Below are positions 1-64,000 of a stretch of 64,000 nt of DNA, piece after piece. A model generated the notes under the pieces. The model saw nothing but the letters and a program-made list of their open reading frames with translations, did not search any database and was not told the origin of the DNA. Position 1 is the first letter of the stretch. Each line of letters starts with the position of its first letter. The position numbers were made by a program, and so were the translations under genes. Origin of the DNA: Hormiphora californensis (Eukaryota > Animalia > Ctenophora); contig CM035357.1 in assembly GCA_020137815.1 (NCBI GenBank), positions 6,138,001-6,202,000 on the forward strand, written 5' to 3'.

Positions 1-2116
1 TGAAAGGTGTGAATGGGCACTGACAACAGAGGGAGGGAATTATCTGATATACCACAGTAGACTGCGGGAAATATCAGCAGGGGGGGTGGTTTATAAAACG
101 CTATAACTCTTGTGATATACTGATAATAATACTGATAACTGCCTACACCTGATACCTCAGGTACCACTACCCTGTGCATCACCAACACCCTCCCTTGTGA
201 TGCCAATACCAAATACTAACTAATATATGGCCTCAGGTACCACTACCCTGTGCATCACCAACTCCCTCCCTTGTGATGCCAATACCAAATACTAACTAAT
301 ATGGCCTCAGGTACCCCTACCCTGTGCATCACCAACACCCTCCCTTGTGATGCCAATACCAAATACTAACTAATATGGCCTCAGGTACCCCTACCCTGTG
401 CATCACCAACACCCTCCCTTGTGATGCCAATACCAAATACTAACTAATATGGCCTCAGGTACCCCTACCCTGTGCATCACCAACTCCCTCCCTTGTGATG
501 CCAATACCAAATACTAACTAATATGGCCTCAGGTACCCCTACCCTGTGCATCACCAACACCCTCCCTTGTGATGCCAATACCAAATACTAATTAATATGG
601 CCTCAGGTACCCCCTACCCTGTGCATCACCAACTCCCTCCCTTGTGATGCCAATACCAAATACTAACTAATATGGCCTCAGGTACCCCTACCCTGTGCCT
701 CACCAACTCCCTCCCTTGTGATGCCAATACCAAATACTAACTAATATGGCCTCAGGTACCCCTACCCTGTGCCTCACCAACTCCCTCCTCCCTTGTGATG
801 CCAATACCAAATACTAACTAATATGGCCTCAGGTACCCCTACCCTGTGCCTCACCAACTCCCTCCTCCCTTGTGATGCCAATACCAAATACTAACTAATA
901 TGGCCTCAGGTACCACTACCCTGTGCATCACCAACACCCTCCCTTGTGATGCCAATACCAAATACTAACTAATATGGCCTCAGGTACCACTACCCTGTGC
1001 CTCACCAACTCCCTCCCTTGTGATGCCAATACCAAATACTAACTAATATGGCCTCAGGTACCCCTACCCTGTGCATCACCAACACCCTCCCTTGTGATGC
1101 CAATACCAAATACTAATTAATATGGCCTCAGGTACCCCTACCCTGTGCATCACCAACACCCTCCCTGGGGGAAGCTAAGGAATTTAGCGAGGAAATGACA
1201 AAGATATCACAGCGATACGAACCACTGCTGCTTAACAACACTCAACACAGCAGTGAACCTAGAAACACCACCTCAGAGCTGCCCTTTCCCCAGGTGATTA
1301 CATTAGAGTCTCCTTCTTCGTAGGTTCAATAAATTCTGCAATTGTTTCATCACGTTGCTAGATGTTTATAAACCACCCCCCCCCCCCCCCCCCGCCAGAT
1401 AATATTTGACAACCTGATGTTTATAACCCCCCTAGATAATATTATTTCCACTCATCCCCCCCCCCCCAGATAATATTTGACAACCTGACGGATGATGATG
1501 GTATAGCGTGTGGGAACACTGTTCAGGAGGATGAGGAGGAGCAGGCAGTGAGGTGCAGTGATCACGTTGCACCCGCACTAACCCCACCACCACCCATCAG
1601 GGAATGGGACGGGAAGGAATGCCCTGCTCTACCATTTGATACGGTATGTAAGGGACCAACTTACAAAAAAGTACCCGGGTTAGTTAACCATTTAAGTACT
1701 CAGGTATGTTTGTATCAAAATACGTGTGAGAGCCGCGCAAGGGTCAACTTACTCGTGCGAACAACCCAATCAAAATACGTGTGGTGGTGGTGCGAGGGTT
1801 AGTATACCCCAAACACATAAATACCCGAACTTTTTTGTAAGTTGCTCTGTTAAGAGAGTTGTAGCTTTTGTAGCTTTTTCAGTCCCTCTGCAGCAACCCC
1901 TATAATATGTTAACCCCCATCATCCCTAATCAGGACGAGGATGAACCGATGAGAAGAATGCCCCAATTTGATTTTGAGCCCGTGAGGTGCATGCCAAGTT
2001 TCGATTCTGACCCTGTTCCTATGAGCTACCGACCCTGGGAGGCTGCCACATCAGATGACCTTCCCTTCTTGTCTCTTGACCTTGGACATCGCACACCCCA
2101 CACGGATTCGGATTAG
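1..2116 (+). CDS. 3' part of an unknown spliced gene (acidic/Pro-rich C-terminus); exons <1-85, 1132-1293, 1470-1643, 1883-2116
   Basis: All three introns are GT-AG and phase 0. They join one open frame (ERCEWALTTEGG... | VPLPCASPTPSLGEAKEF... | IIFDNLTDDDG...LPFDT | SLCSNPYNMLTP...HTDSD*) that includes track ORFs 1548 and 1907. No recognisable domain. Confidence 0.65.
155..1165 (+). repeat. 74-bp tandem repeat, ~13.5 copies, spanning a 3' splice site
   Basis: Unit cctcag|gtacc(a/c)ctaccctgtgcatcaccaacaccctcccttgtgatgccaataccaaatactaactaatatgg starts at 155, 231, 305, 379, 453, 527, 601, 676, 750, 827, 904, 978, 1052 and 1126. Confidence 0.97.
1657..1844. mobile_element. Intronic MITE-like element
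   Basis: Terminal inverted repeats caacttacaaaaaagt / acttttttgtaagttg; no clear TSD. Confidence 0.55.
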
Positions 2117-3027: not shown

Positions 3028-4583
3028 ATGATTTTGGAAGGTCAGTTCCTCATTTCCACATCTACCATGTTGTTGCCGTTATTATTCTTGTTCTGTGTTG
3101 TTGGACCCTCTGATGCCAGCTACTGGTTCAGGAAGGTCAGGGGCACTCTTAGCAGCTCCTATATCTGGTATTGGTGTTGTCCATCGTGACCTGTCTGGCG
3201 GCGCCAGGCCCCGATTAGATTCTCAGATGGGGTCTGCGGCGCCAGACAGATCGAGTGACTGTCAAAATTACCCATAAAAACAGTACTGTCTCACTGTCCT
3301 GGACCATCAAATGTGTCTGTCCCCTGCATATTCAATATGATCTGTCTGTCCTAGTCCACCTACTGTCTACTGTCTGGCACCACATTGAATCTGTCTGCCC
3401 CTTTCAGACTCGGATGACAACATGGTTGCCGAGGTGACTGGAGACGCTGTTGTTGTGGCGGATGTCTTGACTGTTGATGTAGTAGATGCGAAACTAGAGG
3501 CACTCAAAGCGGAACTGGAAGAGAAAATTAACAGACTTGATATGCTCATCAAGTTTTATAACCCAGGTGTGTGCTGTTTCCCTGGATCACCCTCACATGT
3601 AGACACATAGTTAGAAAACCGATTTTGCTACCTTACCAGTACCACACACTACATTGGGACGTTACAAAACCCATTTCCAAAGACTAAACGAAAGGGTTTT
3701 CAGTCATCTTGCCTCACACCTCACACACCCTAACAGGTTGGGGATGGACACCATCTCGGGAGTGTGGGATCGATTGTCCCTACAATGTAGATGTGACCCA
3801 GTACCAGGCGGTACAGTGGCAAGTTGACACCCAGTACATGGACGGTATCTTTGATTTGGAGTTCGTTGATGAAAAGGGATGGTGGTATGGAAACATGGAC
3901 TTGTAAGTATGAAGTATGAAACGTTCTCCCCCGGTTCCAAGTTATACATTTTCCCACGGTGTGTATTAATACTGTGTACTCTCGCGCGCGCGTGTACAAA
4001 ATCACGTGATCAATCACAAAATCTGTTCCGCGCGTCACAAACATGAGTCATGACTGTACCGGATTTGTGACATTTTACACTCAAATGGGGCATTGTCACC
4101 AAATCTCTCTACTCTCAGTTACGACTCTCACATGTGGCTAAGAGGTTGTGGGTGGGTTGAGTATCTTGACGCTGCACCCCGGCCCGAAAATGGAACTATC
4201 AGAACTTGGGCATACTCCAAAACTGACACCGGATTCCAGTTGTGGTGTGAGAGGACTCTACTGGTGGATTTCACCTATACCCAAGGTATACTGATTTTTT
4301 GATTTACTGATTTTGTGTCAGGGAGAGAGGGAGAGTTTACTAGAACTGGATTTTTGAATGGTTTTAAGTTTTAATAATTAAATGAGAATCCATTATTTTA
4401 TCCTTACCCTCTTAGCTAAATTGATAATTTGATGTAATTTCCTACCTATCCTTCATTACAGGTCGGTGTATGGATGTATGGGGAGGGGCGACTATTGGGT
4501 TCTTCTTTGAGACCCAGCCCCAGGGTGTTCACCTACTACAACATGGAGGTGATATGTTTTGGTGGGATAATCAGGAGGAATAG
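3028..4583 (+). CDS. Secreted protein, paralog A (signal peptide, short coiled coil, Trp/Cys-rich globular domain); exons ~3028/3067-?, 3408-3566, 3704-3902, 4119-4285, 4462-4583
   Basis: Signal-like MLLPLLFLFCVVGPSDA. Exons 2-5 are GT-AG, in phase and collinear with paralog B (...GWGWTPSRECGIDC...RTWAYSKTDTGFQLWCER...MFWWDNQEE*). I found no phase-1 donor for exon 1 in the signal-peptide frame, so a frameshift or a missing exon is possible. Confidence 0.75.
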
Positions 4584-5285
4584 GAACTGATACAAGCACT
4601 AAAATCAGGAATAGGAGCTGATACAAGCACTAAAATCAGGAATAGGAGGATTGGGTGGAGGATAAGATACATGAATGAGGAGATTGTTGGTTTGGGTTTT
4701 GTTTTGTTTCGAATGAGGAGATTATATTGGTTAGATAGGTCATAGGATCGATCCATATTATTTCTTTAAAGGGACAATATGTGCGAGCAAAGAACTGTGT
4801 AATTTTCATGGATACATTTCTAAACTCTTTCTAAACTTAAACATTTTCCGTTATATATTTGCCGTGAATAATATTCTCACCAAAACAAATCCCTATTTCC
4901 TAATCTACTACTAAATGCAGGGCACCCTTGTCTCACAGGTGACACAGGTGTTCTACCATCTAGTTACCACGGGTTCCCAAAAGAGCGAGAGAGAGAGAGT
5001 TAGTGAAAGGGACCTATAAGAGGGAGAGTGAAAGAAAGGGATATCTGAGTTAAAGATACGTTCGTTTATAAAATTATAGCGCTATTATAATAGCTAAACA
5101 GGTGCAAAGCAGCAAGTAGCAATTATTTTGGTGTGTGTGTGTGTGTGTGTTTTGCACCGCCCGTCATTCCTCCCAATTATTTTGGTGTTAGCAGCTTATA
5201 GCAGACTTAGAGCATATAGATTTCATGAAACAAGTTAACTCTCCGTCTCGAGTATTTGAGAGTTACTAGTCTCCAGTCTCGAGGG

Positions 5286-5394
5286 CAGGAACCGACCGAA
5301 ACAAGTAAACAACCAATCAAAACTCGCTATTTAGGTCACGTGACTGGTTATCAGCCAATCAGGGACCAGTATTTCCTGATTCGGTCGGTTCCTG
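5286..5394. mobile_element. 109-bp hAT-type MITE
   Basis: TIRs caggaaccgaccgaa / ttcggtcggttcctg; perfect 8-bp TSD ctcgaggg (5278-5285 and 5395-5402); second copy at 44141-44249. Confidence 0.9.
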
Positions 5395-5417
5395 CTCGAG
5401 GGGAGCCCTATACTTAC

Positions 5418-7248
5418 CCAGAACATTACAAGTAGGAAGTGGGGTTTTCCAGGTTCCATCTGTGTTGCATGTTAGGTATTGTGTTGCAAGACCGCCCTCA
5501 CTGCACACTAACTCGACAGTTGTTCCTATTGCTACTTCCGAGTAAGTTCCAGCGTTGGTGATGGCAACAGTTGGGCAAACTAAAGATGGAAGAGTGTGAA
5601 GAGTGGATATATGGTGTGTTATCTAGTGGGTTGTTATGTTGTACAATTCTGTCAATGCTCTGACCGCGGTTTGAAAGAATTAAGAATACTATTATAATAG
5701 GGTCAGGCCAACTGCCTGGTACATACAACTAGTTTACATCTTTACCGCATTTGGGAAGATTTGAGAAGGTGCCATCCAGAATGCAGGTAGCAGTGACACT
5801 TTCACTCTCACTCTCACACCTCACTGCCACCTCAGATCCACCCTCCACGGGTAAACTAGCCTCTGTCAGAATGATACCTTCCTGTATGCTTGTACATTGT
5901 CCTGCGATAGAGAGAGAGCGGGGGAGATCTCTGATCTCAGATCTTAAGAAGTCAGAGAGGGAGAGCTGTCTATATTATATGGGTGCATTTTTTGTGTATT
6001 CAAATTTTGAATACACAAAAACGCACGAATTTCAAAATGATTTCAAACACCTTAATTCCTTGATTCCTATGTCAGGAGTCAACTTTTCACGCTCAAAAAT
6101 TCCCTAACTCACAAATTCCCACGTCATGTGTCTCAGACACTGCATTGAGTACCTAGTACTAGTACCGTACTACCTACAGTGTCTTTGTACTCTCCATCAA
6201 TTAAAACTGACCCGTGTTTATGAGGGCGTTATAACAACTCATTTTCATACTGGACATATCTCGATTAGTGGGATTATTTTCTGTCCACCCTGATGCATGT
6301 TTCAAGTGACAGCCATCGTCTGCAACTCCGGTGTGTGCTACCTACAATAGTACAATAGTGAGAGGGTGGGTACTACCCACAATAGTGAGAAAGTTGAGTT
6401 CAAAAAGCTGTCATTATCATGGGAGAGGGTTAATCAAAAGTTAGAAACCAGTAACTTACCCATGTAAAAGCGTGGCATAGGGTGGGGATAGAGAGGCATG
6501 CCCTTAAACATGACCCGATGGTACTATAGACATTAGAATAATCCCTATAATCAAAACCGGCCAAACTAGTTCCCAGATCACCGCTGTAGTAGTCTGTGTA
6601 GGTCTTCAAACAGTCAGATTGTGGGTAATCTGAGGAAGTTTAAAGTGAGAGTGGACAGAATCAGAATTGGACAATTCTGTGTGGCAGCGGCGACGACCTG
6701 ATCCGAGCGCCAGACGGTGAAAATAGAGTTGAGTCTAGGTCCTAGACTAAAACACACATCATACCTATAACGTAGAGCCGGGGGTATACAGTTTCTTCAC
6801 CGTTACTGCAACTATACGCTACACTGGAACTAGCTGTGACGACCACTGATGACGTCATCCCCTCTGACGTCACACCCTCCACTGTACCTCCATCCAGGGT
6901 CATCCACTGTAGGGTGTCTGATGGGTCGGTGGTGGAGCAGGACAGGGTCACACTGTACCCCGTATCCAGACCCGTCTCAACTACTGAACCTAATGGAGGG
7001 AGAAAGGGAGAGAGGTGCGTGCTACAGAAATGAGTCTAGAGAGTGGAGCGAATTGAGCTTGAAATTTAAAGGCTCAATTTAATTGGCACAAACCCGCTGT
7101 GAGCGAGATATGCAGGACTAGGGTATAACTGCCACGATTGAGTTGGATTATTACCTGTTAGTTGTGGCGTTGATGAGTCTGTCAAAGTTAACAATGCAAC
7201 TCCAATTAACAACCAATTAGAGCTAACCATAGCTAACCAGCTAACCAT
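5418..7248 (-). CDS. Secreted/cell-surface protein: signal - Ig-like - PAN/apple - Sushi - Sushi; exons 7248-7155, 6989-6765, 6629-6460, 6341-6212, 5901-5746, 5579-5418; last exon unresolved
   Basis: All junctions are GT-AG and in phase. Ig motif VTLSC...LQW...YSC; PAN motif CLRACLSIPTLCHAFTW...CHLK; CCP motifs VAVRC...TCILDGTFSNLPKC and VELVC...LTCNTDGTWKTPLPTC. Confidence 0.85.
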
Positions 7249-8663
7249 ATAATATCTGGTAAAGATAACTGTTATCATGCTTCCACGGAACAGAGCAGAA
7301 CTAAAACTTGCAGCATCTAAACTACTAGGTCAGCCTGTCAGAGCATTGGCCTGAGAGTGTGTGAACTGTGGTCAGAGCATTTGCCTGACAGAGTTCAACT
7401 GCTAATTGCTGTTTAAAGGCCATGTTGGTTGCCATGGTCTCCCGGAAACAGCTATTATAACTCTAAAGCAACTCAGAACGAATGGGTATTATACTGGTAA
7501 AACCTTTCTAATATAATGCTGTTTGGAGTGAGAAAACAGTTAAGTAAGTAATCATAAAACTGTTTCGGTCACGTACAGCAAGATGACATGCATTGACGGT
7601 TATGTAGCAGACTCTCAACACTGTAAACAATACAATAGAAGTCGAAGTGAACAGTTGGCGATGGTACTAATACAAGTATATCGTGAGGTTGCTCTCTCTC
7701 GCTCTATCCCTAACAGCGAGAGTAATAGAGTCGACTGTGAAAACTAACAGCTGTTAGAAGTACAGACTAATGACTTGTTCATGTTGTTCATTGTTGAGTT
7801 TAGTAAGGGGTGGAACTCACCAACTAATGACAGTTCAAGTGTGTACTGGAAGACAGGGGAGAGGGAGGAAGAACAGGGGGAGGGGGCTTCGAACTATAGA
7901 CAGAGAGAGGATTGTTTACTATTTACGAGGAAAAGTATTCGGATGTTTGTTAAATTATTCTGAATATATTTCTGAATTTTCCCTTCGCCTCGCTGTCAGG
8001 CCAATGCTCTGACCGCGGTTAGTTAATAATATTTAAACATTCCCAGAGGCAAAAAGAGCAACTTACATAGTGAGTTACAAAAAGAAGTGAGAATAAGGTT
8101 AGACCAATGCTCTGACAGCCGCCTCATGAATAGTCTGTCAGGCCAATGCTCTGACCACAGTTCTTGCACGCTCCGAAATGAGAATATGCCGGGGCCAGAC
8201 CAATGCTCTCCAGAGGCAAATAGTGCAACTAACGATTTATTTTTCTCCCGTGAGGGTAAAATAATTATGGTACGTCGGTACGAAATCGAGTTTTGTCAGT
8301 TGGTCTCAAATATAAGTTATATATCACTCCCATATATAAATCACTCTGGTCGAGTGTTTGAACTTAACTACAGCAATTATCTCTTATGTAAGTCTTACAT
8401 ACTCCTCATAAAGTGTAATTGATATTTTAACTGCAGCACGTACTTGTTGAGTAGGGAGTACTATACTCTATAAACAAGAGTGTTATACTCTATAAATATA
8501 ACAAAAGTGCACATTTATGTGTTGCTTGTTATTATAGGGATCAGCACCCTCGTATAACAGGGACAATTCAAGTACACAGTGAAATAATGAAATATCGAGA
8601 AAGCTCAATCGTCGGTGCGAGAGCAAGTGCACCATATGATATACAGATACTTGGGACATATAT

Positions 8664-10773: not shown

Positions 10774-13723
10774 ATGATTCTTGGAAGGCGAGTCTCCACT
10801 TCTACCCCTACCATGATTTTGTTGTTTTTATCCTTCTTTTTATCGGCGCTAGCCGGGCAAACTATGCCCTGGGACTATTGGGGGTATTATAATTGGGGTC
10901 ACCGCGGGTCCCGGTCAGTACCAAACAGGCAAACTGATTTAGATGATAACAGACGTAAGTACAATCAGTTCAATTATCTGCATCTGCCAGGCGAGGGGTG
11001 TGGTCAGGCATCACGCTGTGCACTTTATATACACATCGCTTTAATTTTAAGATATTATAATACTTGCCTGGCTAGACTGTGTTTCGGAAGCCCCAAATGT
11101 AAAGGGAGGGTTAGAACATAACAATATAATACATATCCTGCTACAGATCCTGATACTACCGTTGCCTCAGTTGACAAGACGGTAGCCGTGGTGACTGGAG
11201 ATGTAAATGGAGATGTGACTGAATATGTGACTCCTCCCAGCTGGTCCTGGGTTGATGACTGGGTGACTGGAGGTGTGACTGGAGGTGTGACTGGAGATGT
11301 GACTGAAGATGTGACTGGAGATGTGACTGGAGATGTGACTGAATATGTGACTCCTCCCAGCTGGTCCTGGGTTGATGACTGGGTGACTGGAGGTGTGACT
11401 GGAGATGTGACTGAAGATGTGACTGGAGATGTGACTGGAGATGTGACTGGAGATGTGACTGGAGGTGTGACTGAAGATGTGACTGGAGATGTGACTGGAG
11501 ATGTGACTGAATATGTGACTCCTCCCAGCTGGTCCTGGGTTGATGACTGGGTGACTGGAGGTGTGACTGGAGATGTGACTGGAGATGTGACTGGAGATGT
11601 GACTGGTGATGTGACTGGAGATGTGACTGGTGATGTGACTGGTGATGAGACTGGTGATGAGACTGGTGATGTGACTGGTGATGTGACTGGTGATGTGACT
11701 GGTGATGTGACTTCGCCATCGTAGATTTTTTGTGATTTTGTTTTTGGTGATTATAGGGACCCATATGGACCAAATAGTGAAGGAATTAGCTTGTTACACA
11801 TTTTTCCATAGTTTCGGTCCTTTCTTAGCTAAAATTCCCTAATTCCAGGATATTGGAGTTTAGCTTTTGCCCTTTTCATGAAATTTGTTTTTCGCAATTA
11901 CAGCAAAAACGGTTGAAGTAGGAGCAAAATGTCTCTCAGAAGACCCCCCCCCCCCCAAAATCGGACCTTCTGAATCGTTTCAGCATAGTCTCAGGTCTCT
12001 ACGATCAGCTGTTTTTGAGATACAGGGAATTTATTTATTTCTGAAATGACGGCTTTCACAAAAAAAACTCTGTACTGCTTATCTCAAATAAGGACACGCC
12101 CAAAATTTATGGCCACTTAGATAATCGTTAGACGCAACTTTTCACCAATTTACAGCTTTCACATGTTTTCGGAACTTTGCCAAATAGGGCGTTAAAGTGG
12201 AAAAAAAGAAATCCATCTCAGGACCGGAAATCAGCTCGGATTGCGAAAAAAAATTTTTTGTGGTTATTCACCTTTATGTCCTCTTCAAATCCCCAAATTT
12301 TCATGCTCCTATCTTCAAAAAAAATTTTTTGAGATGCCAAAAACGTATTTACAGGACATTTTTTAAACAGCTGTAGCAAAAATAAAATTGCATATTTGAG
12401 GTCTCCTTGGTATGGCCTACAACCCTACGGTGAGAGATTTCCCTGCACTCGAAAAAAAAATCGGTCGGCGTACCCTTAAGTTCTTATTATACAATATACA
12501 TATTCTGCTACAGATCCTGATACTACCGTTGCCTCAGTTGGCAAGCCGGTGGCCGTGGTGACTGAAGATGTGACTGGAGATGTGACTGGTGATGTGACTG
12601 GTGATGTGACTGGAGATATGACTGGAGATGTGACTGGAGATGTGACTGGAGATGTGACTGGAGATGTGACTGGCCAGATAGGCCAGGCCGCTACTCCGGT
12701 GGGAGAGAAAGTTAACAAACTTGACATGCAACTCAACAGCTTACAAAACCCAGGTTTGGACGCTGTTAGTTTCAGTTTCACCTACGCTTTATCCCCTGGT
12801 GGATGCGAAAAAAGAGTACCAAATAGCATTAGTATTACTTTTCTCTTGACTTATTGCAATCCAACTACCATCCTAATAACTAAAAACGTTTAAAACAGAT
12901 CCATTTATCAAACCCTCACACACCCTCACAGGTTGGGGATGGACACCATCTCGGGAGTGTGGGATCGATTGTCCCTACAATGTAGATGTGACCCAGTACC
13001 AGGCGGTACAGTGGCAAGTTGACACCCAGTACATGGACGGTATCTTTGATTTGGAGTTCGTTAACAAAAAGAGGCGGTATCGTCGCCTTGACAACATGAA
13101 GTAGTGAGTATCACGACACCACTGACCACATCCGTAACGCCTTATCAGTCTGTTTAACGGCGCTGACTCGATCTTAGGGCACGGGGGAGCCAAAAACGTG
13201 ATCGGCGCCGTCAGACAGGCAACAGCCGTCAGGTATCTGACGTGCACTCGAGGTATAACAGGTCGATGTCTTGTTTTAACTTCCTATTATTCAGCTACAA
13301 CTCTCACATGTGGCTCAGAGGCTGTGGGTGGGTTGAGTATCTTGATGCTGCACCCCTGCCCGAAAATGGAACTATCAGAACTTGGGCATACTCCAAAACT
13401 GACACCGGATTTCAGTTGTGGTGTGAGAGGACTCTACTGGTGGATTTCACATATACCCAAGGTATACTGATTAAGAAAATCTGTCTGGCGGCACTGCAGA
13501 TTTCGGTTTGAATTGTCACTGTTCTCAGCAATCCCGCTAGTTTTCTCTTACAATTTGCTCTGCCCTCTGGTTTATGTTGTAGTAATCTCCTATTTGTTCA
13601 GGTCGGTGTATGGATGTTTGGGGAGGTGCTACTATTGGGTTCTTCTTTGAGACCCAGCCCCAGGGTGTTCACCTACTACAACATGGAGGCGATATGTTTT
13701 GGTGGGATAATCAGGATGAATAG
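10774..13723 (+). CDS. Secreted protein, paralog B: signal - (VTGD)n repeat - coiled coil - Trp/Cys-rich domain; exons 10774/10813-10954, 12514-12753, 12899-13103, 13295-13461, 13602-13723
   Basis: Signal MILLFLSFFLSALAG; all junctions GT-AG and in phase; ends MFWWDNQDE*. An extra truncated copy of exon 2 lies at 11147-11724. Confidence 0.85.
11147..11724 (+). pseudogene. Duplicated exon 2 with an expanded 12-bp (VTGD) array, truncated by a transposon fragment
   Basis: Same acceptor and start (ctgctacag|ATCCTGATACTACCGTTGCC) as 12514. The gtgactggagat array contains three EYVTPPSWSWVDDW inserts and runs into TE sequence at 11711; stop at 11722-11724. Confidence 0.75.
11711..12475. mobile_element. 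Right half (spacer plus one TIR) of a Kolobok-like non-autonomous element
   Basis: Matches 47513-48290; ends cgtaccc|TTAA; left TIR absent. Confidence 0.85.
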
Positions 13724-21699: not shown

Positions 21700-23040
21700 C
21701 ACGGCGTGCCTGGTGAAATTTTAACACGACCTAGCATGCAACGGGAAACCACCACTTGTACGTGGTAGCTGAGGGTCTACAGAATGGCGCTACGGTGCGG
21801 GAAAAAACATTCCATTCCCTAAAATCGTTTTTTTCACTTTTATTTGATTTGGGTCAAAATTGGCTATATCAAACGTGGTCCCGAAAAATCCATAATGACT
21901 TAGCAAACGAAATAAGTCACCCCTACCTATTTTTGCACGTAGAATCGATTGCCGTTGAAGTCGAATCTCTAAAATGACTGTAAAATGGTCAAAAGTTGAT
22001 TTTTTACCATTTTTTGGAGGTTTTTGGCCCCTAAACCATTGAAAACGTTGAGATAGGAATTTGAAACTAGTGCCAATCGTTAAAATGGTCATTTTTCTAC
22101 CAAGAACCAAGTTTTCGTGTATATCCGATTTATGGTTAGATTTGGGCAAATTGTTGAAATCTGCCAACTAGGAGAACCGTAACTTGATTTTCTTGTTTTT
22201 TGGATTTTGGCATTTTTGAAAAACTTCTGATTGAAATGGCCAGTCGGGACCATGCTTAAGTTGTTTATGGGACAATTTTCGACTAAAATCCAAGATTTCA
22301 TACCAATCCAATAACAGATCGTTGATTTATAGAAAATTTGCGTAGGCAAAACGGTCAAAATAACAACTTTTCTTGCTTATTTTGACCGTTTTGCCTACGC
22401 AAATTTTCTATAAATCAACGATATGTTATTGGATTGGTATGAAATCTTGGATTTTAGTCGAAAATTGCCCCATAAACAACTTAAGCATGGTCCCGACTGG
22501 CCATTTCAATCAGAAGTTTTTCAAAAATGCCAAAATCCAAAAAACAAGAAAATCAAGTTACGGTTCTCCTAGTTGGCAGATTTCAACAATTTGCCCAAAT
22601 CTAACCATAAATCGGATATACACGAAAACTTGGTTCTTGGTAGAAAAATGACCATTTTAACGATTGGCACTAGTTTCAAATTCCTATCTCAACGTTTTCA
22701 ATGGTTTAGGGGCCAAAAACCTCCAAAAAATGGTAAAAAATCAACTTTTGACCATTTTACAGTCATTTTAGAGATTCGACTTCAACGGCAATCGATTCTA
22801 CGTGCAAAAATAGGTAGGGGTGACTTATTTCGTTTGCTAAGTCATTATGGATTTTTCGGGACCACGTTTGATATAGCCAATTTTGACCCAAATCAAATAA
22901 AAGTGAAAAAAACGATTTTAGGGAATGGAATGTTTTTTCCCGCACCGTAGCGCCATTCTGTAGACCCTCAGCTACCACGTACAAGTGGTGGTTTCCCGTT
23001 GCATGCTAGGTCGTGTTAAAATTTCACCAGGCACGCCGTG
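21700..23040. mobile_element. 1341-bp near-perfect palindrome; Chapaev/CMC-like non-autonomous element
   Basis: 664-bp arms with a 13-nt spacer (22364-22376); mirrored ORF pairs in the track; CACGG...CCGTG termini; 4-bp agag on both flanks (weak evidence in an AG-rich context). Confidence 0.85.
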
Positions 23041-25040: not shown

Positions 25041-28000
25041 ATGGATCTGCGGTACCTGCTACTTCAGATGACTATGGTATGGTTTGGTGGAGCAGTCTAC
25101 TCTTCCTCGATATGCAAGAAAAGGTACCCAATTTAGAAGCAGGACTGATCAGGTCTCAGGACTGTAAAATCAGGACAGTCAAATAGGAGGAGTAACCAGA
25201 TTGAAGCTGGTCGGTCAATTAACCCCACAAACTAAAATAATTCTACTCCTCAGTGACATAACGGTTACGGACGCTAAAGTGACGATCAAATCATTCACGC
25301 CCTCCCTGGAACTAACCAAAGATGACATAACCACCTCTAAAATGGTCGTGGGATGTCCTAAGGTAAAGACACTTCTCACCCTAGATTACATTGAATTGTT
25401 TAGGAAGCTCAAAGATTTAACTAAAATTGCTTGGATCTCGCGATTTAGTTGACAACCCTAACAGTTTATTTGTCAGCTCTATTTGACATTCCAACTCAGG
25501 GCTACCAAATGCGTATTGACTACGCATGGACCTATCAGACATATGAACAGCCCAATGGTAACACCCTTATTGAGGTGAACTGTTCCAATCTATACGCACT
25601 GGATAACACACAGATCTGCTTCAGAGGATGCTCGTAAGTTCCACGTGACATACCATATATGGGCATATCACACACGTGATATTTCAAGATTGATTTACAA
25701 CGTCACAGAAGACAGTCTCCAAAGTTTCAATATAAACTGTTTAACTATTGTTCATGTTCATTGATTCTCTACTAGTTAAACTGTTTTTGTAAACACTTGT
25801 GAAGCCAGCTAACTCTACTGCTGCAGTATTAACACTAAGATATAGTTAAAACAGTGTGATATTAGTCGTTGAGTGGTATTTACTGAGATTGTCAGAATTA
25901 AAGTAAATCAACAATCGGTTGAACAAAATAATCGAAATTTCACTTCGCAGGACGTTTTATGAAACCAAAACTGAATTGTTAACATTATTTTCTCACTTTT
26001 AGGTTGCCAAAGGTAGATAACAGTGTCATATCTCCTCTGCCATCTCGGTCCAAAGTTGGAGCACCCTACAATGAAGGAGAATCCATTGAGGTAAGAGAGA
26101 GAACTGTTCACATATTGCTCATGTTGTTAAGGTAGAATTTTTCATGTCGTTCATGTTTTCAGATCCCAGGACTTAGAAAAACAGGAGAAATAAAGGTTTC
26201 TCCTAATATATTGTGTGTATTTCAAGGAGTGTAGCATTGTTAAATGTTAGTGTGTTGTTAGTGTTTGTCAGTTTATCAGGTGATGATAGCACTTTATATT
26301 TCACTAAGACGATGGCTAATAGTCAACATGTCTCACATACTGTGAGCTTTGTAGAATATCGTATGCCAACTGAGGGTAAAATAAATTGTTCCAAGACAAA
26401 TATATGACCCGATTTCGGCCCGATTTCTTTTCAGAAGAGCTCCTCACATATCCAGTCTCCAACAACACCAGTATCCTAAACCTACTGTCCCTTTCAGTTG
26501 TGGTGTGGAGAGGACGTGATACGCAGCACGTGTAAGGGTAGTGAGTGGAGTAACCTGAGTGAGTATAGCTGTCCTACAAGGAACATTAGTGCCCGATCCA
26601 TGGCCATCGTGCTGGATACAACTACAAACATGGAACAGGAGATTAAACAGGTATAGGAAGAGGGTGCAGTGATAGACTGCAGGTACTGGGTATGTACTGT
26701 AATAAGAGGGGGAGTCGGACAGGAGATTAAACAGGTATAGGAAGGAATGTGATGCACTGGGTACTATATAGGTACTGTGATAATTATACACTGGGTACTG
26801 GGGGAGTCGGGAAGGTACTGGGTCCTGTGAAAAGAGGGGAGTCGGGAGCGTAAGCGACCACAACTAGTGAGACAGTTAGTGTGTGAATTTACGACCGTCA
26901 CTAAGAACTAATTGGATATTTTATGGGAGGCGGGAGCTGCATCATGATGTTACTATTTACCCACTACTATCAAACCACTATAAACCACTTCAAACCACTA
27001 CCGTATCCTGCAGGTGTATGATGTGGCTATCTCCATGCTAGATACCATCTCCAAGATGAACGACCCACCAATGGTTAACTACGTCCTCGTCCCATTCAAC
27101 GATCCCGACTTTTACCCCATGTTGGTGACCAACAATGGTTCCATTCTCCTCCGGCATCTTGCCATGATTGATGGGCATGGTGCCAGTGGGGGCAAGGATT
27201 GCCCCGAACTCACCCTGGCTGCAGTTCAACGGGCTATTACAGAGAGCTACCCTGGATCTGAAATATTCGTATTCACTGATGCAAGTAAGTATTGAGTTGA
27301 ATTAGAGTTTAATAAAATAGAAAGAGCTACTAGAACCCCCTATTCTTCTCCCATGGGCACACCAATTGAGGCCATGGGGCAATTAGGCGACAATATTTAA
27401 CCCCAGCTCCTTCCCCTCAGGCAGTAAAGAGGAAGACCGTAGGATAGTGATAATGGAGGAGGCAACGAGGAAGAGGATCAAAGTTAACTTTATACTGACG
27501 GGACATTGCAGTGACAACCAACTTGAGGAACAGGCGGTGTATTATGAGATCGCTGACGCTACATCGGGATTTGTAAGTGGGACAATGGGATTTCCTTTTG
27601 TGGGACAAGAGGGTAAGAATTAGTTACTGGTCTGGGATAAACACCGAATTTTCACCGATAGTTGGGGGCAAATGGCCAGTGCTATTTCATGTATAGTGGG
27701 ATCCTAACAACCTGATAACCTTTCAGTTGGTATCAGTTGACAAAGCCCAAGTTCGGGAGATATCCAGTTTAATGTCTGCGGCTCTAATGGCTAATGAGGG
27801 TGTGCTACATGAGGTGTTTACTGTTGGCAGTGAGAATCCTTCAGCAGTTGTCAAGGTAACGACCACACTATCGCCACCATAGCAACCGAGTTGCATTGTA
27901 GAACTGTGGATGGTAATCTCAATACATGAATTTTCATTGAGCCCCTAATAATCCTTGCCTTTAGATCCCGTGTGACAAGAGAGTACAGCGGATGACTGTG

Positions 28001-31000
28001 ACAGTAACATGCGATAGTGTCCGAATTATCAATGCACGGGATGATAAAGACAATGATGTCAGGTTTCACCAAGTCAGCACTCTCAGGGATATGATAACCA
28101 TCAGTCTGCAACCTTCCATCGCAGGTAGGAAAAACAATGAAATATTCCAAGTTCAATGCTATACATCCTATGACACCAGCCGTGCCACATTCAGTAGTTA
28201 CTGTAGGACCCCGATTTACCGGGCCCCGATATACCAGGAAGATACACTTCCCCCGAGAATCACGGTAATCGGGGTCCGACTGTATATCGAAAACTTGCAT
28301 TTCAAACTCTCGATGTATAATCTGATCTAATATTACTACTGTGTGATTCTATTGTGTTCCAGTAGCACCAACCGATTTGTTGTGTTTGTTAGGAGATCCG
28401 TTTTTGTGTCGCCGGCCACAATTGGGCCCCGGTAAGCAAACGTACACTGTGCAGTGATCTGTGAAACTCCTCCCTTCTCTTTGTTTTCTCGTGTTCAGCG
28501 TGTCGGTATAAAATATTTTCCGATAAAAACATGTGCATATTAAGTAAAGCTTCTCTCGTTCTTTCGTATTATTCATATCTTTCAGATTGTTTCACAACTA
28601 ACTTTTCACAACCTATATTGTGTATCGTATTGTCATTGGACACGTATTGTCTCTTGTGTTTGTTGCATGCTGTAACCAAACTGTTAATGTAGGGTGCTAG
28701 AAGTTCTCAATAATCGTGTTCTGTCTGGTGAACAAATTTGAGCGCACTGTTGCACGCTTTTGGGAATCAAAACGGGGCCTATTGCCGCCAGACAGGTTAT
28801 TAGTTTGAAATGCTTTTTGACCATCTCCTCCTTTTCAGAGCATGTCAAACTGAATGTCTCCTGCGTTGAACGAGGCACCGCAGTGGTATCTGCCCAGACA
28901 ATTACTGACATTGACTTCACCTACCAGTTCTACTTATACGAGGTATGTTGTCACCATGGCAACCATATGATGGTTTGGTAGCCATGGAAACCCAGCAGTA
29001 ATGGGCCATGGCACAATCATTGGGACGATCACTTTCAGCAGCTATACAGCTTACTAAAACAGTGAATTCCCTAGGTCCATGATACCCTAGTGGAGACAGA
29101 TACCCTGGTGGCGGGATCCACAGCAGTGATCTATGTCATGTTTGGTGCCCCTGTATACGATGTACAAGTTACCACGATGGTATCTAACCAACCAGATGGT
29201 ACTGTTCCTATGAAGGTGCGTTGTTATTTGGTTTAGAATAGTTTAGAGGTATCATTGAGAGGTATCATCAGAGTTTAGAAATGTTCGAATTCAAGTATAG
29301 AGGTGCAGAAAGTTATAAATGAGGGCTACCTTGACAAATAATATTGTCTCTCTCTCCATAACAGAAGTATCTGAGAGGTTTCATGGCAACGATTACAGTG
29401 CCAACGTTCAACTTCCATCTCCAATTTACCGCAAAGTACTCTGGCCAGACGGTGCAACGAGTCTCAACACCCATCATACCTAGATCTGGTAAGTTCCAAT
29501 AATCCACTGACCACTCCATGTGCTGGATAATTTAGAATATATTTCCCTGATCCCTCAACCTTCCTCTTACAACTATCGAGCATTATAATTTGAATCCGAG
29601 AGTCGGTTTGGGTCCGAGTAAAATAATTCTACCCCTCCATGAGGGAGTCAATTAATAACACGTCATATATCTATATCACCATGATATATTCCAGGTTGCC
29701 GGGACTTGCCCAGCAGTTCATCCCTGGTCAGCACCCTTCAAACCCACGAGGGGACGGTAGTGAGCTTCTCCTGTTCTAACGAGTGTCAGAGGTTATCCCA
29801 TGATAGGGAGTTGAGGTGTGAAGATGGGGTGTGGAGTGAGCAACCACCGACCTGTCATGATGCTGGTAAGAAATGTGAAGGGATATATGTCATGATGCTG
29901 GTAAGAAATGTGAAGGGTTTTGTTGCTCGAAATATTGGGTACAAGATGAGTGCTCTAAACCTTGTTCAAGGGTCTCAAATCATCACTATTTTCCGCGTTG
30001 GACGTTGGTGCCACCACCAACTTGGTGGGTTAGATTAGAAATCATCTAGGAGCTGTGTGTGTTTGACATGTAATATTCTACTCAGGCTATACATGTGGTA
30101 CACTGAAAGGACCGGGCAATGGAACACTCATGTTCAACAACCAGATCTTGTACACTCTTGCCAGCGCTAAATGTGGCCAATCTGCTGAGGTAACTAAATT
30201 TCTAGCTTGATAATTCAAGAGATATACCAGTGGCACTGTGTTAAATAGGGTGATCGGTCATTATATTTGCTAATTTTGATACTGATCTTTGATGTTTTTT
30301 TGACAGCACGTATTTCCCCTCCTCAGGTGCACTGCAATACATTCTTCAAGCTAAACGGGGAGGAGAGATCTACCTGTACACCCTACGGATGGAGTAACAA
30401 GGTTAACACTTGTGTAGGTATGTAACTCTCAATTAGTAGTCAATTAATTGTGCGAATGTGCGATTAGAACCAAATTACACATAGTTCATGCCGAGTGTAA
30501 TATCCAGATATTATTTGCTGACACGAACTATTATCACAAACAATCACACATTTATGCAAGTGTGTCATTCATTGAACACATGCAATGTTACACAATATTA
30601 TATTCTTGATATCTGACTACTAGATAGCATCTAACTCCTTAAACTCGCAGGCATCAAGAAAGAAGACAAGACTGATACCGATACGATTGATAACAAAGGG
30701 GAGGGTGCATCTGATGAGAGCCGAGAGGAGGTCACCAAGGTGCTTGGAGATTGGTGGATGTGGCTGGTGATCTGTGTTACTGGTGTTGTTACTCTATCTG
30801 TTCTATCGACAGTTATTTGCATCCTCGTTATAAGGGTACGTGTGTGGGTTCAGGGTTGGTTACAAAGTCACCCTTATTATTGCATATAGTGAGCTTGTGC
30901 GGAGGGGTAATTTCAATACCAACGTGTGTCGGAGGCTTCAAAAGAACCAGTTTTTGCACTTTGAGAAATTACTCAACCATTGCTATCTTGCAGCTTGTCA

Positions 31001-31600
31001 ATATCCTGCATAACTCATTTATAAGGCATATTGTTCAGCATGAATATTCAAATTGTCTGTTTACCAAACCCTGTGACGTGGTCCAATATATACCAGCTCA
31101 TGGGTAGCAAATTACCTGTTCTCAACAGGAACCTGCAAAAAAGCAGACAGAGAGCTCAGAGCAAGCTTTCATCACCATTTCATGTTCAACTAATTTAAAG
31201 AGAACAGAGAGCTTCCAATAATACCACCTCTCTCTCCAGAGAGTTTTTAATAAAAAAACTTCGACACGTCGAAATTCGAAAAGTCAACTAATTCTCATTC
31301 ACCTCAGAAGGGAAAACGGAAAGATCCTCTACGAATGGGATATGAACGAGCACCAATTCCAAGGATGGGGGATACAGATGCCCTAGCTATAACTGATGAT
31401 ATCTATGAAGTAGTTGATACTAGTGGTAACTACCCACCCGGTTGCTATAGCAACGGCCCAACATCATGTAGAAACAGCCGGCCACCACTACCTCCACCTC
31501 TGTCAAATCCTTATGGAAACCCCGCCCCTGGAAACCTAGCATCCAATCCTCTCTACAGTAGAACAGGTAAGCTTTGTGTGTTTACTGCCTGTGTGTTTAG

Positions 31601-31637
<37 letters not shown>

Positions 31638-31923
31638 TGTGATTAAAACATTTGTTTGATCGTTATGTGATCTTTGAATGCCTGATAAATCTTTGTAACT
31701 GTTCCTATATCTTATCTTGTAATATCTTTGTTCCTCTTCTTATTGTGAAGCACCCACTCTTCTCTCTACAGCATCCTCAGCAGCATCAAGCTCCTCATCT
31801 GGTCTACCCGGGAATGATTACATGCGCATGTCAGGTGATATACGAAGTACCAGCATTATCTATGAAGAGATGGCAGCTCGCCAACAACAACCCGAGTACG
31901 ACTATGCCACAGGACATGTTTGA
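25041..31923 (+). CDS. Type I membrane protein, ~869 aa: signal - Sushi-like - hemicentin/VWA7-type VWA - beta-sandwich region - 2 Sushi - TM - Tyr/Pro-rich tail
   Basis: 18 GT-AG exons, all in phase (2610 nt): 25041-25123, 25254-25362, 25500-25633, 26003-26090, 26498-26650, 27014-27284, 27421-27572, 27727-27855, 27965-28124, 28839-28942, 29075-29215, 29365-29488, 29695-29865, 30086-30189, 30327-30417, 30651-30835, 31308-31566, 31772-31923. VWA motifs NYVLVPFNDP, GGKDCPEL, IFVFTDASSK, VNFILTGHC; TM WWMWLVICVTGVVTLSVLSTVICILVI. Confidence 0.9.
28201..28282. mobile_element. Small pogo/Tc1-like MITE
   Basis: ggaccccgattt ... aatcggggtccgactg|ta; relatives at 40437-40611 and ~44270-44310. Confidence 0.65.
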
Positions 31924-35013: not shown

Positions 35014-57833
<22,820 letters not shown>

Positions 57834-58803: not shown

Positions 58804-61800
58804 CCACTACACGCACCACTCCCGCATGGGGCCGTAAGGTCCCATGCGTGAGCAGGGTTAAATCCCCCGAGCCCGGATCCTGTTGGATCTGAGGGCCCGG
58901 AGGGCCTGCGGAGTAAAGGTTGGTAGAACAATGTACATAGGGGTAAGTTGAACAATGTACATATGGGTTAAAGTAAGGGAAAAATAATTAAGGGGGAATT
59001 AAAGCTCATGGAGACGGAGCATAAGACCTCCTATACTATCTGGAAAGAAGCCCAACCATCTGGAACGGAGTCTAAGAAGAGACAACTTATCAGGAACTGA
59101 AGAAGCAAACCGTCTGAATCTAGGGAAATCTAGGGGCAAGCAGGAACGGGTATAAAGTTGTGCTGTTACACCGAACGAAACAATATAAGAAAAACTGGTA
59201 TACAATTAAAATTACAATTACAGGGGGGATACAGCTCAGGAGGGTAATGACATGTCGAGAACTTTCCGGAGCGTGTTCATCGAGTTGAAGAGGACTGACT
59301 TTTGGAGCTGTGAGGGGTAAACTTGGCGGGTTATAGCAGTCAGATACTTCTCCAGTCGGGGGCTGACTCCGCCAAGAGCTCCGATCACGATAGGGATGAC
59401 CGTGGCCTTTTTAAGATCCCAAATTCGTGTGAGCTCCCTCCGTAGTTCTTGGTACTTCTCGATCTTCTCCATCTCCCTGTCCGAGACTGACCTGTCCTTT
59501 GGTACAGCGACATCAATCAGAAGCGCTTCCTTCTTTAGTTTATCTAGAAGGACCAAGTCAGGTTTACATGCCTCGATGGGGTTATCCGTCTGTATGTGGA
59601 AATCCCAGAGGATCTTGCAGTTCTCATTCTCGAGCACTTTCTCTGCATAGTGGCTCCACCACTTTGATTCGGTAGGAAATCCGTGGTCCTGGCACAATCC
59701 CCAGTGTAGGGCAGCAGCTACTCGATCGTGTCGGAGTTTATAATCTCCGTTGGCAAGTTTCGTGCATCCGTTTAGGATGTGTTCCACCGACTCGTTGTGT
59801 TGGTTACATATACGGCACTTCTCTGTCGCTCCATCCTCTTTCTCGATAGCAGCCTTCAGCCAGTTTGTGCGAGTGGCTTGATCCTGGGCAGCAAATACGT
59901 CGGCTTCGGTATATCTGCTGAGGCTCTCTTTGTTGAGCCAGGCCCAGGTCGCGTCAGGGTCGCAACCCCCTTCTTCAAGTTGCTTCAAGAATCTTCCATG
60001 TAACACTTTGCTCTTCCATTTCTCCAAGAGATCCGCCTGCAATCTTTCCTTCATGGCTTCTGCTTCCTCTGGGTCTGTCATTAGCATCTCTTCTCTCTGC
60101 ATCGCTGCGTGGAGGGCTAAGATCTTTGTATCAGTGGAGTTGTTGAAGAACGTCACGAGTCCTGTCTCTTCCTTCGCAATGACATCTTCAATCCGCTGGA
60201 GGCCCCTACCTCCCTTTTTCCTGGTGACATATAGTCGATCGACGTCACTGTTATGCTTGATTACCCCTCTTCTCAGGTGGCGTCGGGTAATGCTATCCAG
60301 CCCTCTGGCTTCGGAATTGGTCCAGTCCAGAATTCCAGCACCGTAACGGATCACAGGTATTGCCCATGTGTTGATTGCAGTGATAAGGTTCTTGCCTGAC
60401 AGGCTCGAGGACAACAGCTTCTTGACTCTTCGAGTGTACTCGATTTTGACCTTAGCTTTCATTTCTTGATGTAGAATACAGTCAATCTCCAGGATGCCGA
60501 GGTACTTGTAGCCTCCATCCTCCACTTCAGGTATTCTGTCTCCACTTGGAAGGTCTATTCCCTGCATTCGGCTTCTGACTCCATCCACGATGTCTAGTGC
60601 TCCACATTTGGATATACCAAAGGACATGTTGATGTCAGTACTAAACTTCTCGGTGACTTCTAAGAGTTGCTGGATGTCATCTTTCGAGTTAGCATATAGC
60701 TTAAGGTCGTCCATATAGAGGCGGTGGTTAATACTGATGTCTGTGTTTGGAGCATCTGGATTAGGTATGGTGTAGCCTCTCCCTTGGCTTGTGAGGAGCA
60801 TGGACAAGGGGATCAGTCCTATAATAAAGTGTATAGGGGAGACAGCGTCTCCTTGGAAGAGGCCTCTCTTGATGTGTATTTGGCCTAGGGCTGAGCCAGA
60901 TTGTACTATGTTGACAACACACTGTTGGAACGATGCCTCGAACAGCCGGATTATCTTGGGGTTTATCTTGCACATCTCCATGGACTTTAGGATCCAGGAG
61001 TGTGGGATCGAGTCGTAGGCCTTTTGGTAATCAATGAAGGCCATATACAAAGATGACTTTGTGCGTTTGCAATGTCGCAAGATCAGTTTGTCGATTGCTA
61101 GTTGCTCCTTACACCCTCTGCTCTTTTTCCGGCATCCCTTTTGCTCTTCCGGAAAGAGCTCGCTTACATCGAGGTGCTGGTAGATGTCTTCTGATAATAT
61201 TCCTGTATACAACTTCCAGAGGTTGGGGAGACAGGTTATGGGCCTGAAGTTCCCCGGGTTGGAGGTTCCCTTCTTGGGGTCTTTAACCAGGAGAAAGGTT
61301 CTACCTTCAGTCATCCACGCTGGGACCTGACTCGTAGCGAGGCTTTCATTTAGAAGCTCAGCTATCCGTCCATGGAGGCAGGTCGTGTGTTTAATCCAAA
61401 AGGCGTGGAGACCGTCAATACCAGGGGATGACCAGTTGGTCATTCCTTTCGCACGGGCTGTGACTCGTTCCGTGGTGATCTGGAAATCCTCCTGTTGGTT
61501 GACCGTTTCAAAATTCTCTTGGACACCGTCTAACCACTCTGCTGCAGTGTTATGGCCAGCTTCGTTTTCCCAGATGTTTTTCCAGAAGTTAAGGGTCCTA
61601 GTTTGGTCTTCTGGAGTGTATTCAAGTGGTATGGGATCCGATCCACGTTTCTCCAGTTTCCGGTAAAAGTTTCGCTGATTGTTCTGGAACAGGTTGTTGT
61701 CAGCGAATGTCTGCTGCTTCTTCTTGTATCTTTTAATCTTTCCGGCCTTTGCCAGCAGTCTCTGCTTCACTTCCTCTATCACCTGTTTATAGCCCTTCTT

Positions 61801-63110: not shown

Positions 63111-63175
63111 TATCTATATAATATGTCTATATGGTGGATCTGGGACAGGGGCCAGTGTGAAGCATTATGATCAAC

Positions 63176-64000
63176 GGGAACGGGGTAAACTATCCTTTCT
63201 GGGACGGGGCAACTATCCTCTGTGAAGCTGGGTAAACTATCCTCTCTGGGACGGGGTAAACTATCCTCTCAGGAACGGGGTATGGGGTAGACTATCCTCT
63301 CTGGGACGGGGCAACTATCCTCTGTGAAGCGGGGTAAACTATCCTCTCCGGAATGGGGTAACTATCTTCTCCGAAACGGGGCTACTATCCTCTGTGAAGC
63401 GGGGTAAACTATCCTCTCTGGACCGGGGTAAACTATCTTCTCAGGAACGGGGTATGGGGTAGACTATCCTCTCCGGGGCGGGGCAACTATCCTCTGTGAA
63501 GCGGGGTAAACTATCCTCTCTGGGACGGGGTAAACTATCTTCTCAGGAACGGGGTCTGGGGTAGACTATCCTCTCCGGGACGGGGCAACTATCCTCTGTG
63601 AAGCGGGGCAAACTATCCTCTCCGGAATGGGGGAACTATCCCCTCCGGAACGGGGCTACTATCCTCTGTGAAGCGGGGTAAACTATCCTCTCCGGGACGG
63701 GGCAAACTATCTTCTCAGGAACGGGGTATGGGGTAGACTATCCTCTCTGGGGCGGGGCAACTATCCTCTGTGAAGCGGGGTAAACTATCCTCTCTGGAAC
63801 GGGGTAAACTATTCTCTCTGAACGGGTACAATCCTAACTGGATCGAGACCCTATTAATGAAATTAACTATCCTCTCTGGAACGGGGCTACTATCCTCTGT
63901 GAAGCGGGGTAAACTATCCTCTCTGGGACGGGGTAAACTATCCTCTCAGGAACGGGCTATGGGGTAGACTATCCTCTCTGGGGCGGGGCAACTATCCTCT
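63176..64000 (+). repeat. 23-24-bp minisatellite with ~102-bp higher-order structure (runs off the window)
   Basis: Monomers ggggtaaactatcctctctgggac, ggggcaactatcctctgtgaagc and ggggtaaactatcttctcaggaac plus ggggtat recur in ordered sets. Confidence 0.95.

What the first reader, a model, noticed from the sequence alone, without database searches (positions are those of the whole stretch)
155..1165. Array of 13 back-to-back 74-nt units, each shaped like a complete intron (candidate recursive-splicing ratchet or intron birth)
Seen: read from the AG|GT junction, each unit starts GTACC, carries a perfect TACTAAC branch-point motif (most copies) ~15 nt before a CAG, and is followed directly by the next GT, so the exons between units have zero length. 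Read as exon, the first unit hits TAA; only the last copy runs into the open exon 1132-1293. The upstream intron (86-160) is 75 nt, almost the same length. Known: AG|GT ratchet points mediate recursive splicing, and tandem duplication of an AG|GT proto-splice site is a proposed route to intron gain. Inference: the transcript must either skip 13 near-identical acceptors or remove the units stepwise as mini-introns.
Basis: partly seen in the sequence, partly recalled or inferred. Interest (0 to 1): 0.82.

Follow-up and report, generated by a model that had tools for sequence, protein, structure and literature searches.

The report
Comb-jelly splice-acceptor "mirage" repeat
In a comb-jelly gene, a 74-base piece that straddles the start of a working exon has been copied 13 times into the intron before it, a repeat type already known from lancelets ("mirages"), and splicing likely skips the extra copies rather than removing them one by one.

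Summary
The array is real: 13 full units (161-1131) plus a partial 14th that begins a transcribed, coding exon (1132-1293) of a ctenophore gene. Each unit is 35-39 nt of that exon's start plus about 38 nt of intron end (branch point, CAG). The "GT" is the exon's first codon (Val), also present in a second organism whose contig shows no unit before the exon. The claimed 75-nt upstream intron is unsupported: 1-97 is the end of a high-copy repeat. Of 26 introns mapped in this window none is under 105 nt, and the unit junction is a weak donor. The same window holds a second acceptor array (38-40 nt x 11), a two-copy acceptor and a two-copy donor. This matches amphioxus "mirage" minisatellites (PMC3087553). 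The scan has noted this class in other windows of this genome. Most likely (0.72, inferred) the upstream copies are silent and the last acceptor is used. No RNA junction across the array was seen, so recursive splicing (0.06) and in-frame micro-exon use (0.10) are unlikely but not excluded.

The parts
1..97 (.). End of a high-copy interspersed repeat; not shown to be an exon.
   Evidence: depth, loose ends at 95-100 in X1, X5, X8; donor score below 26 of 26
98..160 (+). Unique intron end before the array, with the first acceptor (CAG at 158-160). A second contig type in X1 has a 14-nt deletion at 115.
161..1131 (+). 13 tandem units; each = 35-39 nt copy of the exon start + 38-40 nt intron end with TACTAAY and CAG (13 further acceptors; the last, at 1129-1131, abuts the working exon)
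1132..1293 (+). Working coding exon, 162 nt, phase 0 at both ends; its first 35 nt are the 14th, partial copy
   Evidence: RNA contig covers 1137-1293; 7 of 8 listed variants are silent third-position changes
1294..1469 (+). Intron, donor GTGATT. Its acceptor is itself duplicated (1385-1417 and 1456-1488, 71 nt apart); the RNA contig joins to the distal copy.
   Evidence: table 5
1470..1643 (+). Coding exon, 174 nt
   Evidence: 9 of 12 listed variants silent
1644..1933 (+). Intron (donor GTATGT) holding a high-copy element at about 1649-1852 with inverted ends
   Evidence: 13-letter loose end of the RNA contig matches 1935 onward
1934..2116 (+). Likely last coding exon, ending in TAG
   Evidence: inferred from frame
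49340..49763 (-). Second acceptor-spanning array (10 extra 38-40 nt units before the working exon) in a phospholipase C gene; used as an internal control

Best explanation
The array is a minisatellite made of a splice acceptor plus the first 35 bases of a working exon, copied 13 times into the preceding intron, and the spliceosome likely ignores the 13 upstream acceptors and joins the upstream exon to the last one. Shown: unit anatomy; the last copy opens a transcribed coding exon; a second organism has an allele with no unit before that exon; three more splice-junction duplications lie in the same window. Inferred: origin by local duplication, then growth and mixing by unequal exchange between alleles; choice of the last acceptor by exon definition, because only it lies a normal exon length (162 nt) from the donor at 1294 and is followed by the whole exon; rare use of an upstream acceptor would give a stop within 21 codons and likely be cleared by nonsense-mediated decay. 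Every unit has a good branch point because the working acceptor uses the same sequence, so alleles without one would have been lost (inferred).
For: Unit = exon start + intron end. Exon 1132-1293 is transcribed and spliced and coding: 7 of 8 listed variants silent. A 96-nt contig of organism B has 39 letters before and 57 letters within the exon, and the 39 are not the unit's spacer (record 24), so GTACC is plain exon sequence. 0 of 26 mapped introns are 77 nt or shorter. 22 mapped internal exons span 63-224 nt; 162 fits, the alternatives (236, 310 ...) and 36 do not. Local copies of the junction: 3 of 27 acceptors, 1 of 26 donors, against 85 of 2896 random positions (P=0.044 for acceptors, but the 27 include the finding itself). 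In the next intron the RNA contig uses the distal of two acceptor copies (that individual's DNA is unknown). A predicted protein 99% identical over the PLC exon queried carries the peptide of the second array once. In amphioxus, RT-PCR suggests that such repeats do not disturb splicing although many keep AG/GT signals (PMC3087553, passages; PMC3902484, passage).
Against: No RNA junction into 1132 was seen: the only RNA contig starts at 1137. The upstream exon and donor lie outside the window, so the intron's length is unknown. With exon-side letters, the A-type junction CAG|GTACCA (4 of 13 units) scores above 5 of 26 real donors, so it is weak, not dead. All 3 substitutions among the units' exon parts are silent (chance about 0.034) and the commoner insertion there is 3 nt, which also fits translated micro-exons. 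Human donor-side minisatellites do leak to nearby pseudo-sites in 2 of the 5 genes named in PMC1557585 (passages). Introns here are short (median about 230 nt), where pairing across the intron could favour the first acceptor (from general knowledge). The 24 model-based introns come from predicted proteins, which may under-report very short introns.
Confidence: 0.72

Rival explanations
1. In-frame micro-exon array. Upstream acceptors are used, GTGATG at +37 acts as donor, and 36-nt (12-residue, Pro/Ser-rich) exons are added before the working exon, separated by new introns of 38 nt or, skipping one unit, 112-115 nt. This would be intron birth by the route drawn for mirages.
For: 12 of 13 units give an in-frame 36- or 39-nt piece before GTGATG. 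3 of 3 substitutions there are silent. GTGATG shares five letters with the RNA-supported donor GTGATT. 112 nt exceeds the shortest mapped intron, 105 nt.
Against: CTT|GTGATG scores below all 26 donors; all 5 mapped donors without G at -1 have GTRAGT. 36 nt is below all 22 mapped exons. The second array also varies only silently in its exon part (11 of 11 copies give the same six residues) although its 38/40-nt units cannot be in-frame exons, so silent variation is explained by exchange with alleles of the working exon. Unit 7 has a 1-nt insertion.
Confidence: 0.1
2. Leaky or harmful allele. The upstream acceptors compete well, many transcripts get an early stop and are degraded, and the array allele gives less protein; it persists because it is often paired with an array-free allele.
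For: 11 of the 12 inner acceptors have TACTAAC while the working one has TACTAAT. X1 unit depth is accounted for by one haplotype's worth of copies (rough). Leakage is reported for human 6-16 and CBS minisatellites (PMC1557585, passages).
Against: A second sample also holds many units. Junction copies recur at 4 of 53 junctions in this window, which suggests tolerance. Amphioxus mirages are reported not to give aberrant mRNAs.
Confidence: 0.1
3. Recursive ratchet. The upstream exon is joined to acceptor 160, the junction re-forms a donor at GTACC, and the 13 units are removed in 74-nt steps.
For: AG|GT, branch point and CAG are in every unit. CTAAY lies in the last 40 nt of 12 of 26 mapped introns against 6.6% of background YAG sites, so the acceptors look real. 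Recursive splicing has been found in smaller human introns too, as a stochastic, less frequent mode (PMC10156609, passages).
Against: The same junction forms at 1132 and the exon is kept. GTACCC scores below 26 of 26 and GTACCA below 25 of 26 donors on intron letters. 74 nt is under the shortest mapped intron. Fly recursive segments average 9.1 kb and nearly all exceed 1 kb (PMC6110457, passages). The second array has no GT after its AG, so GT is not a feature of these arrays.
Confidence: 0.06
4. Assembly artefact: the array is an expansion made by the assembler.
For: No contig spans the array (contigs cannot).
Against: Units differ in a patterned way; word depths in X1 match the assembled copy number and a second sample holds the units.
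Confidence: 0.02

Closest known systems
Amphioxus 'mirage' minisatellites (Adh3, globin BflGb6/BflGb9, troponin C, PGBD5). PMC3087553 and PMC3902484: passages seen; supplements not opened. The name came from an earlier scan note.
   Same: Tandem copies of an intron 3' end plus the 5' part of the next exon (BflGb6 has this layout); AG/GT signals kept in many units; copy number differs between haplotypes; units homogenised; proposed as a possible route to intron gain.
   Different: Ctenophore rather than cephalochordate; 13 extra copies at 96% (BflGb6: 6 and 3 units, 81-100%); every unit keeps a full branch point; the exon happens to start with GT; correct splicing was not tested here.
Human splice-junction VNTRs: F7 IVS7 (37 bp), CBS IVS13, LMNB2, PDGF, 6-16. 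PMC1557585: abstract and passages seen.
   Same: First unit spans an exon-intron boundary; identical pseudo-sites are mostly silent but can be used; the site next to the full exon wins.
   Different: Those repeat donors; this one repeats the acceptor with its branch point, so the used site is the last, not the first.
Recursive splice sites (ratchet points) of Drosophila and human. PMC6110457, PMC10156609: passages seen.
   Same: AG directly followed by GT, with branch point upstream.
   Different: Single conserved sites in long introns with segments mostly over 1 kb; here 13 young copies 74 nt apart, weak donor, and the same junction is kept intact in the mature RNA.
Intron gain by tandem duplication of an exonic AGGT (Rogers model; ATP2A1). 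PMC3265369: abstract and Discussion read.
   Same: Tandem duplication of a segment containing AG|GT.
   Different: There the AGGT lies inside coding sequence and the new intron splits an exon; here the copied segment holds an existing acceptor and the copies lengthen an existing intron.

Membership tests
Mirage minisatellite | Head-to-tail repeat whose unit spans an intron-exon boundary | tested here: met
Mirage minisatellite | One terminal copy is the authentic, transcribed boundary | tested here: met
   RNA contig covers 1137-1293; silent variants fix the frame. The junction at 1131/1132 itself was not seen.
Mirage minisatellite | Extra units keep splice signals | tested here: met
   13 of 13 end in CAG with TACTAAY
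Mirage minisatellite | Copy number varies between haplotypes or species | tested here: inconclusive
   One organism-B contig has no unit directly before the exon; X1 depth fits one haplotype's copies. No spanning reads.
Mirage minisatellite | Regular splicing is not disturbed | tested here: inconclusive
   No RNA contig crosses the junction
Recursive splice site | Acceptor directly followed by GT | tested here: met
Recursive splice site | Re-formed donor resembles the organism's donors | tested here: not met
   Intron letters score below 26 of 26 (C type) and 25 of 26 (A type) donors; with CAG in front, above 1 and 5 of 26. Small training set.
Recursive splice site | Segments long enough to be introns (mostly over 1 kb in flies) | tested here: not met
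   74-77 nt; shortest of 26 mapped introns 105 nt
Recursive splice site | Splicing intermediates or lariats at the site | not testable with these tools
   Only assembled contigs were offered
Intron gain by tandem duplication (Rogers type) | Duplicated AGGT lies within coding sequence | tested here: not met
   Sequence before the first AG is intron end preceded by a high-copy repeat; AG is the exon's acceptor
Intron gain by tandem duplication (Rogers type) | New donor-acceptor pair is spliced | tested here: inconclusive
   No such joint in the one RNA run that holds the gene, depth about 5

The most novel reading that the evidence does not exclude
Intron birth caught in the act: the units are phase-0 micro-exons. 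The upstream acceptors pair with the GTGATG donor at +37, so transcripts of array alleles gain a variable number of 12-residue Pro/Ser repeats separated by brand-new 112-nt (or 38-nt) introns that array-free alleles lack, with or without some 74-nt ratchet steps.
Probability: 0.1. Interest if true: 0.65.

Novelty: new member of a known kind. Interest (0 to 1): 0.24.

Why it matters
As a single locus it is a clean example of a known repeat type. Its value is as a natural test bed: 14 near-identical acceptors with full branch points in a row, likely present on some alleles and absent on others, in an early-branching animal with short introns. Reads across it would show directly whether ctenophore splicing picks acceptors by exon definition, and would test the proposed but unproven step from mirage repeat to new intron (model in PMC3087553). 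One search (ctenophore, minisatellite, intron, Pleurobrachia; 56 papers held three of the four terms, none of the 15 listed held 'minisatellite') and (2 papers, both amphioxus) showed no ctenophore report; the library lacks most subscription papers.

Tried and rejected
No whole genome was held, so no genome-wide count and no view of the upstream exon. Reads were laid on two stretches, 1058-2850 and 1-310, not on the whole array; all runs were contigs, so order, copy number per molecule and intermediates stay open. RNA run X7 gave no cover on 1-165, on the unit's intron part, or on 1058-1136, and no joint between units; its contig starts at 1137 at depth 5.3; a hole proves nothing. X13 (guessed RNA) gave only a 39-nt weak match. 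X5 has no cover at 111-154 and X8 none at 199-310: holes, not counted. Idea that the unit's intron part is a copy of the window's own intron end 98-154: not supported, 776 of 2000 shuffles reach the score and 1 of 26 other intron ends scores higher; its source is unexplained. Gene identity: exon 1470-1643 found no relative; exon 1132-1293 found one weak, repetitive hit, E 5e-4, rejected; exon 1440-1799 frame gave only a sub-cutoff Pfam hit. A 23-nt pattern found 0 loci in metagenome contigs. No Rfam match in 1-2500. Minus-strand reading of the array: stops in all three frames. The 18-nt inverted pair 80-97/1365-1382 was considered as ends of one element carrying the array; rejected because it would enclose a spliced, conserved exon, and 1-97 occurs with many unrelated flanks. 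Scan notes near this place and for 1-100: none. A search for classic duplicated-acceptor experiments returned only PMC1557585, whose passage says early studies gave opposite results.

Full report
Observation. The repeat is there. TRF gives period 74, 13.6 copies, 155-1166. Cut at CAG|GTACC it has 13 full units from 161 to 1131 (74 nt x 9, 75 x 1, 76 x 1, 77 x 2), TACTAAC in 11 and TACTAAT in 2, and a partial 14th copy at 1132-1166. TACTAAC occurs only twice more on the + strand of the window.

Organism. An exon at 26984-27292 has its best hit in the ctenophore Bolinopsis microptera (71%). Two predicted proteins with 'sb' ids match window genes at 99-100%; I recall that prefix as Pleurobrachia gene models, which is memory, not a call. 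The related Hormiphora has about 3.2% heterozygosity and many non-coding indels (PMC8527503, passages).

The gene. An RNA contig (X7, depth 5.3) covers 1137-1293, skips 176 nt at GT..AG, covers 1470-1643, and has a 13-letter loose end matching 1935 onward. Of the variants listed (64 more were not shown), 7 of 8 in exon 1132-1293 and 9 of 12 in exon 1470-1643 are silent in the frame that starts at 1132. So the array ends in a real coding exon. The protein has no relative in the searches run.

What a unit is. The first 35 nt of each unit are a copy of the exon's start; the rest is an intron end. GTA is the exon's Val codon. In organism B a 96-nt contig runs from 30 unrelated letters through 9 letters of intron end and 35 exon letters into the rest of the exon (record 24, depth 9.2, one of several allele types), so the exon exists there with no unit directly in front. 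The true upstream exon lies left of the window.

Is it an artefact? Two unit contigs in X1 have depths of 575 and 444; their words occur on average 10.5 and 7.2 times in the window, which gives 55 and 62 per copy, close to 66 and 57 for the two flank contigs. This is rough, and X1 may be the source sample, but it fits the assembled copy number on one haplotype. Sample X5, from another study, holds the unit too.

Splicing rules in this window. I mapped 26 introns: 24 from two predicted proteins, 2 from RNA (two gaps in the second model were left out). Lengths run from 105 to 2666 nt. Donors are mostly GTRAG. CTAAY lies near the end of 12 of 26, against 6.6% of 1850 background sites, so the unit's acceptor is of the organism's normal type; its pyrimidine share (0.55) equals the lowest real value. 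On intron letters GTACCC scores below all 26 donors and GTACCA below 25. Internal exons span 63-224 nt (22 exons). The set is small and partly predicted.

It is not alone. A second array of 38-40 nt units spans an acceptor of the phospholipase C gene (49340-49763, minus strand): ten extra copies, no GT after the AG, and the branch motif is formed at the exon-intron seam of the unit. The acceptor at 1469 and the donor at 29866 each have one local copy. In all 3 of 27 acceptors and 1 of 26 donors have local copies, against 85 of 2896 random positions. That is at most a mild excess, and the count includes the finding.

Silent variation. All three substitutions among the units' exon parts are silent (chance about 0.034). 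I took this seriously as a sign of translated 36-nt exons. The second array shows the same pattern in 11 of 11 copies although its units cannot be in-frame exons. Exchange with working alleles of the exon explains both (inferred). Earlier scan notes reach the same idea on other windows; that is not independent support.

Mechanism. Best reading (0.72): local duplication across the acceptor, growth by unequal exchange, and use of the last acceptor, which alone is followed by the full exon and a donor 162 nt away. Use of any other acceptor without further splicing gives a stop after 19-20 codons. Against the ratchet: the junction re-formed at each unit is the same as at 1132, where the exon survives; steps would be shorter than any mapped intron; fly segments are mostly over 1 kb, though smaller human introns can be spliced recursively at low rates. 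Not shown: any junction into or within the array.

Known relatives. Amphioxus mirages, above all BflGb6 (intron 3' end plus exon 5' part, 6 and 3 units on two haplotypes, splicing apparently regular), and human junction VNTRs. Three defining features of mirages are met, two are inconclusive, none failed. Two features of recursive sites and one of Rogers-type intron gain were not met. Supplements of PMC3087553 hold the unit alignments and were not opened.

Verdict. A new member of a known kind, already noted by this scan in other windows of this genome. Interest 0.24. The open question worth a bench test is which acceptor is used.

Noticed in passing
window 49340-49763 (-): Second acceptor array in a phospholipase C gene. 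The branch motif CACTAAC is made at the seam of exon and intron parts. Nine of ten extra copies carry a donor-like GTATGT 7 nt after the AG through silent changes; the working copy and one extra copy do not.
   Followed up: partly
window 1385-1488 (+): Acceptor of the next intron is duplicated 71 nt upstream (33 nt, 97%); the RNA contig uses the distal copy.
   Followed up: partly
window 29854-29910 (+): Donor at 29866 of the VWA7-like gene has a copy 35 nt downstream.
   Followed up: no
26 introns across the window: CTAAY branch-like motif near the 3' end of 12 of 26 introns against 6.6% background; fairly strong for an intron-rich animal.
   Followed up: partly
window 1-97 and 1365-1382: High-copy repeat end; its last 18 nt recur inverted in the next intron.
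   Followed up: partly
window 1649-1852: High-copy element with 24-nt inverted ends starting 5 nt inside the intron donor at 1644; an earlier scan note describes a MITE that sits just inside donors, not compared here.
   Followed up: no
window 3260-3289: Matches, 27 of 30 letters by eye, the loose end that precedes the exon's acceptor in the organism-B contig; no other copy in the window. Unexplained.
   Followed up: partly
window 3389-4600 and 11122-13720 (+): Two paralogous small genes with near-identical exons; both 5' parts of the second carry 12-nt coding repeats.
   Followed up: no
window 21735-23005 and 47024-48167: Mirror-image ORF pairs point to long inverted duplications (about 640-nt arms at 21.7-23.0 kb), likely foldback elements.
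   Followed up: no
window 59239-64000 (-): 1227-codon open frame with a reverse transcriptase domain, preceded by complex 24/102-nt tandem repeats; looks like an intact non-LTR retrotransposon.
   Followed up: no
window 5362-7329 (-) and 25497-31900 (+): A sushi/Ig-domain gene and a VWA7-like gene with sushi domains.
   Followed up: partly
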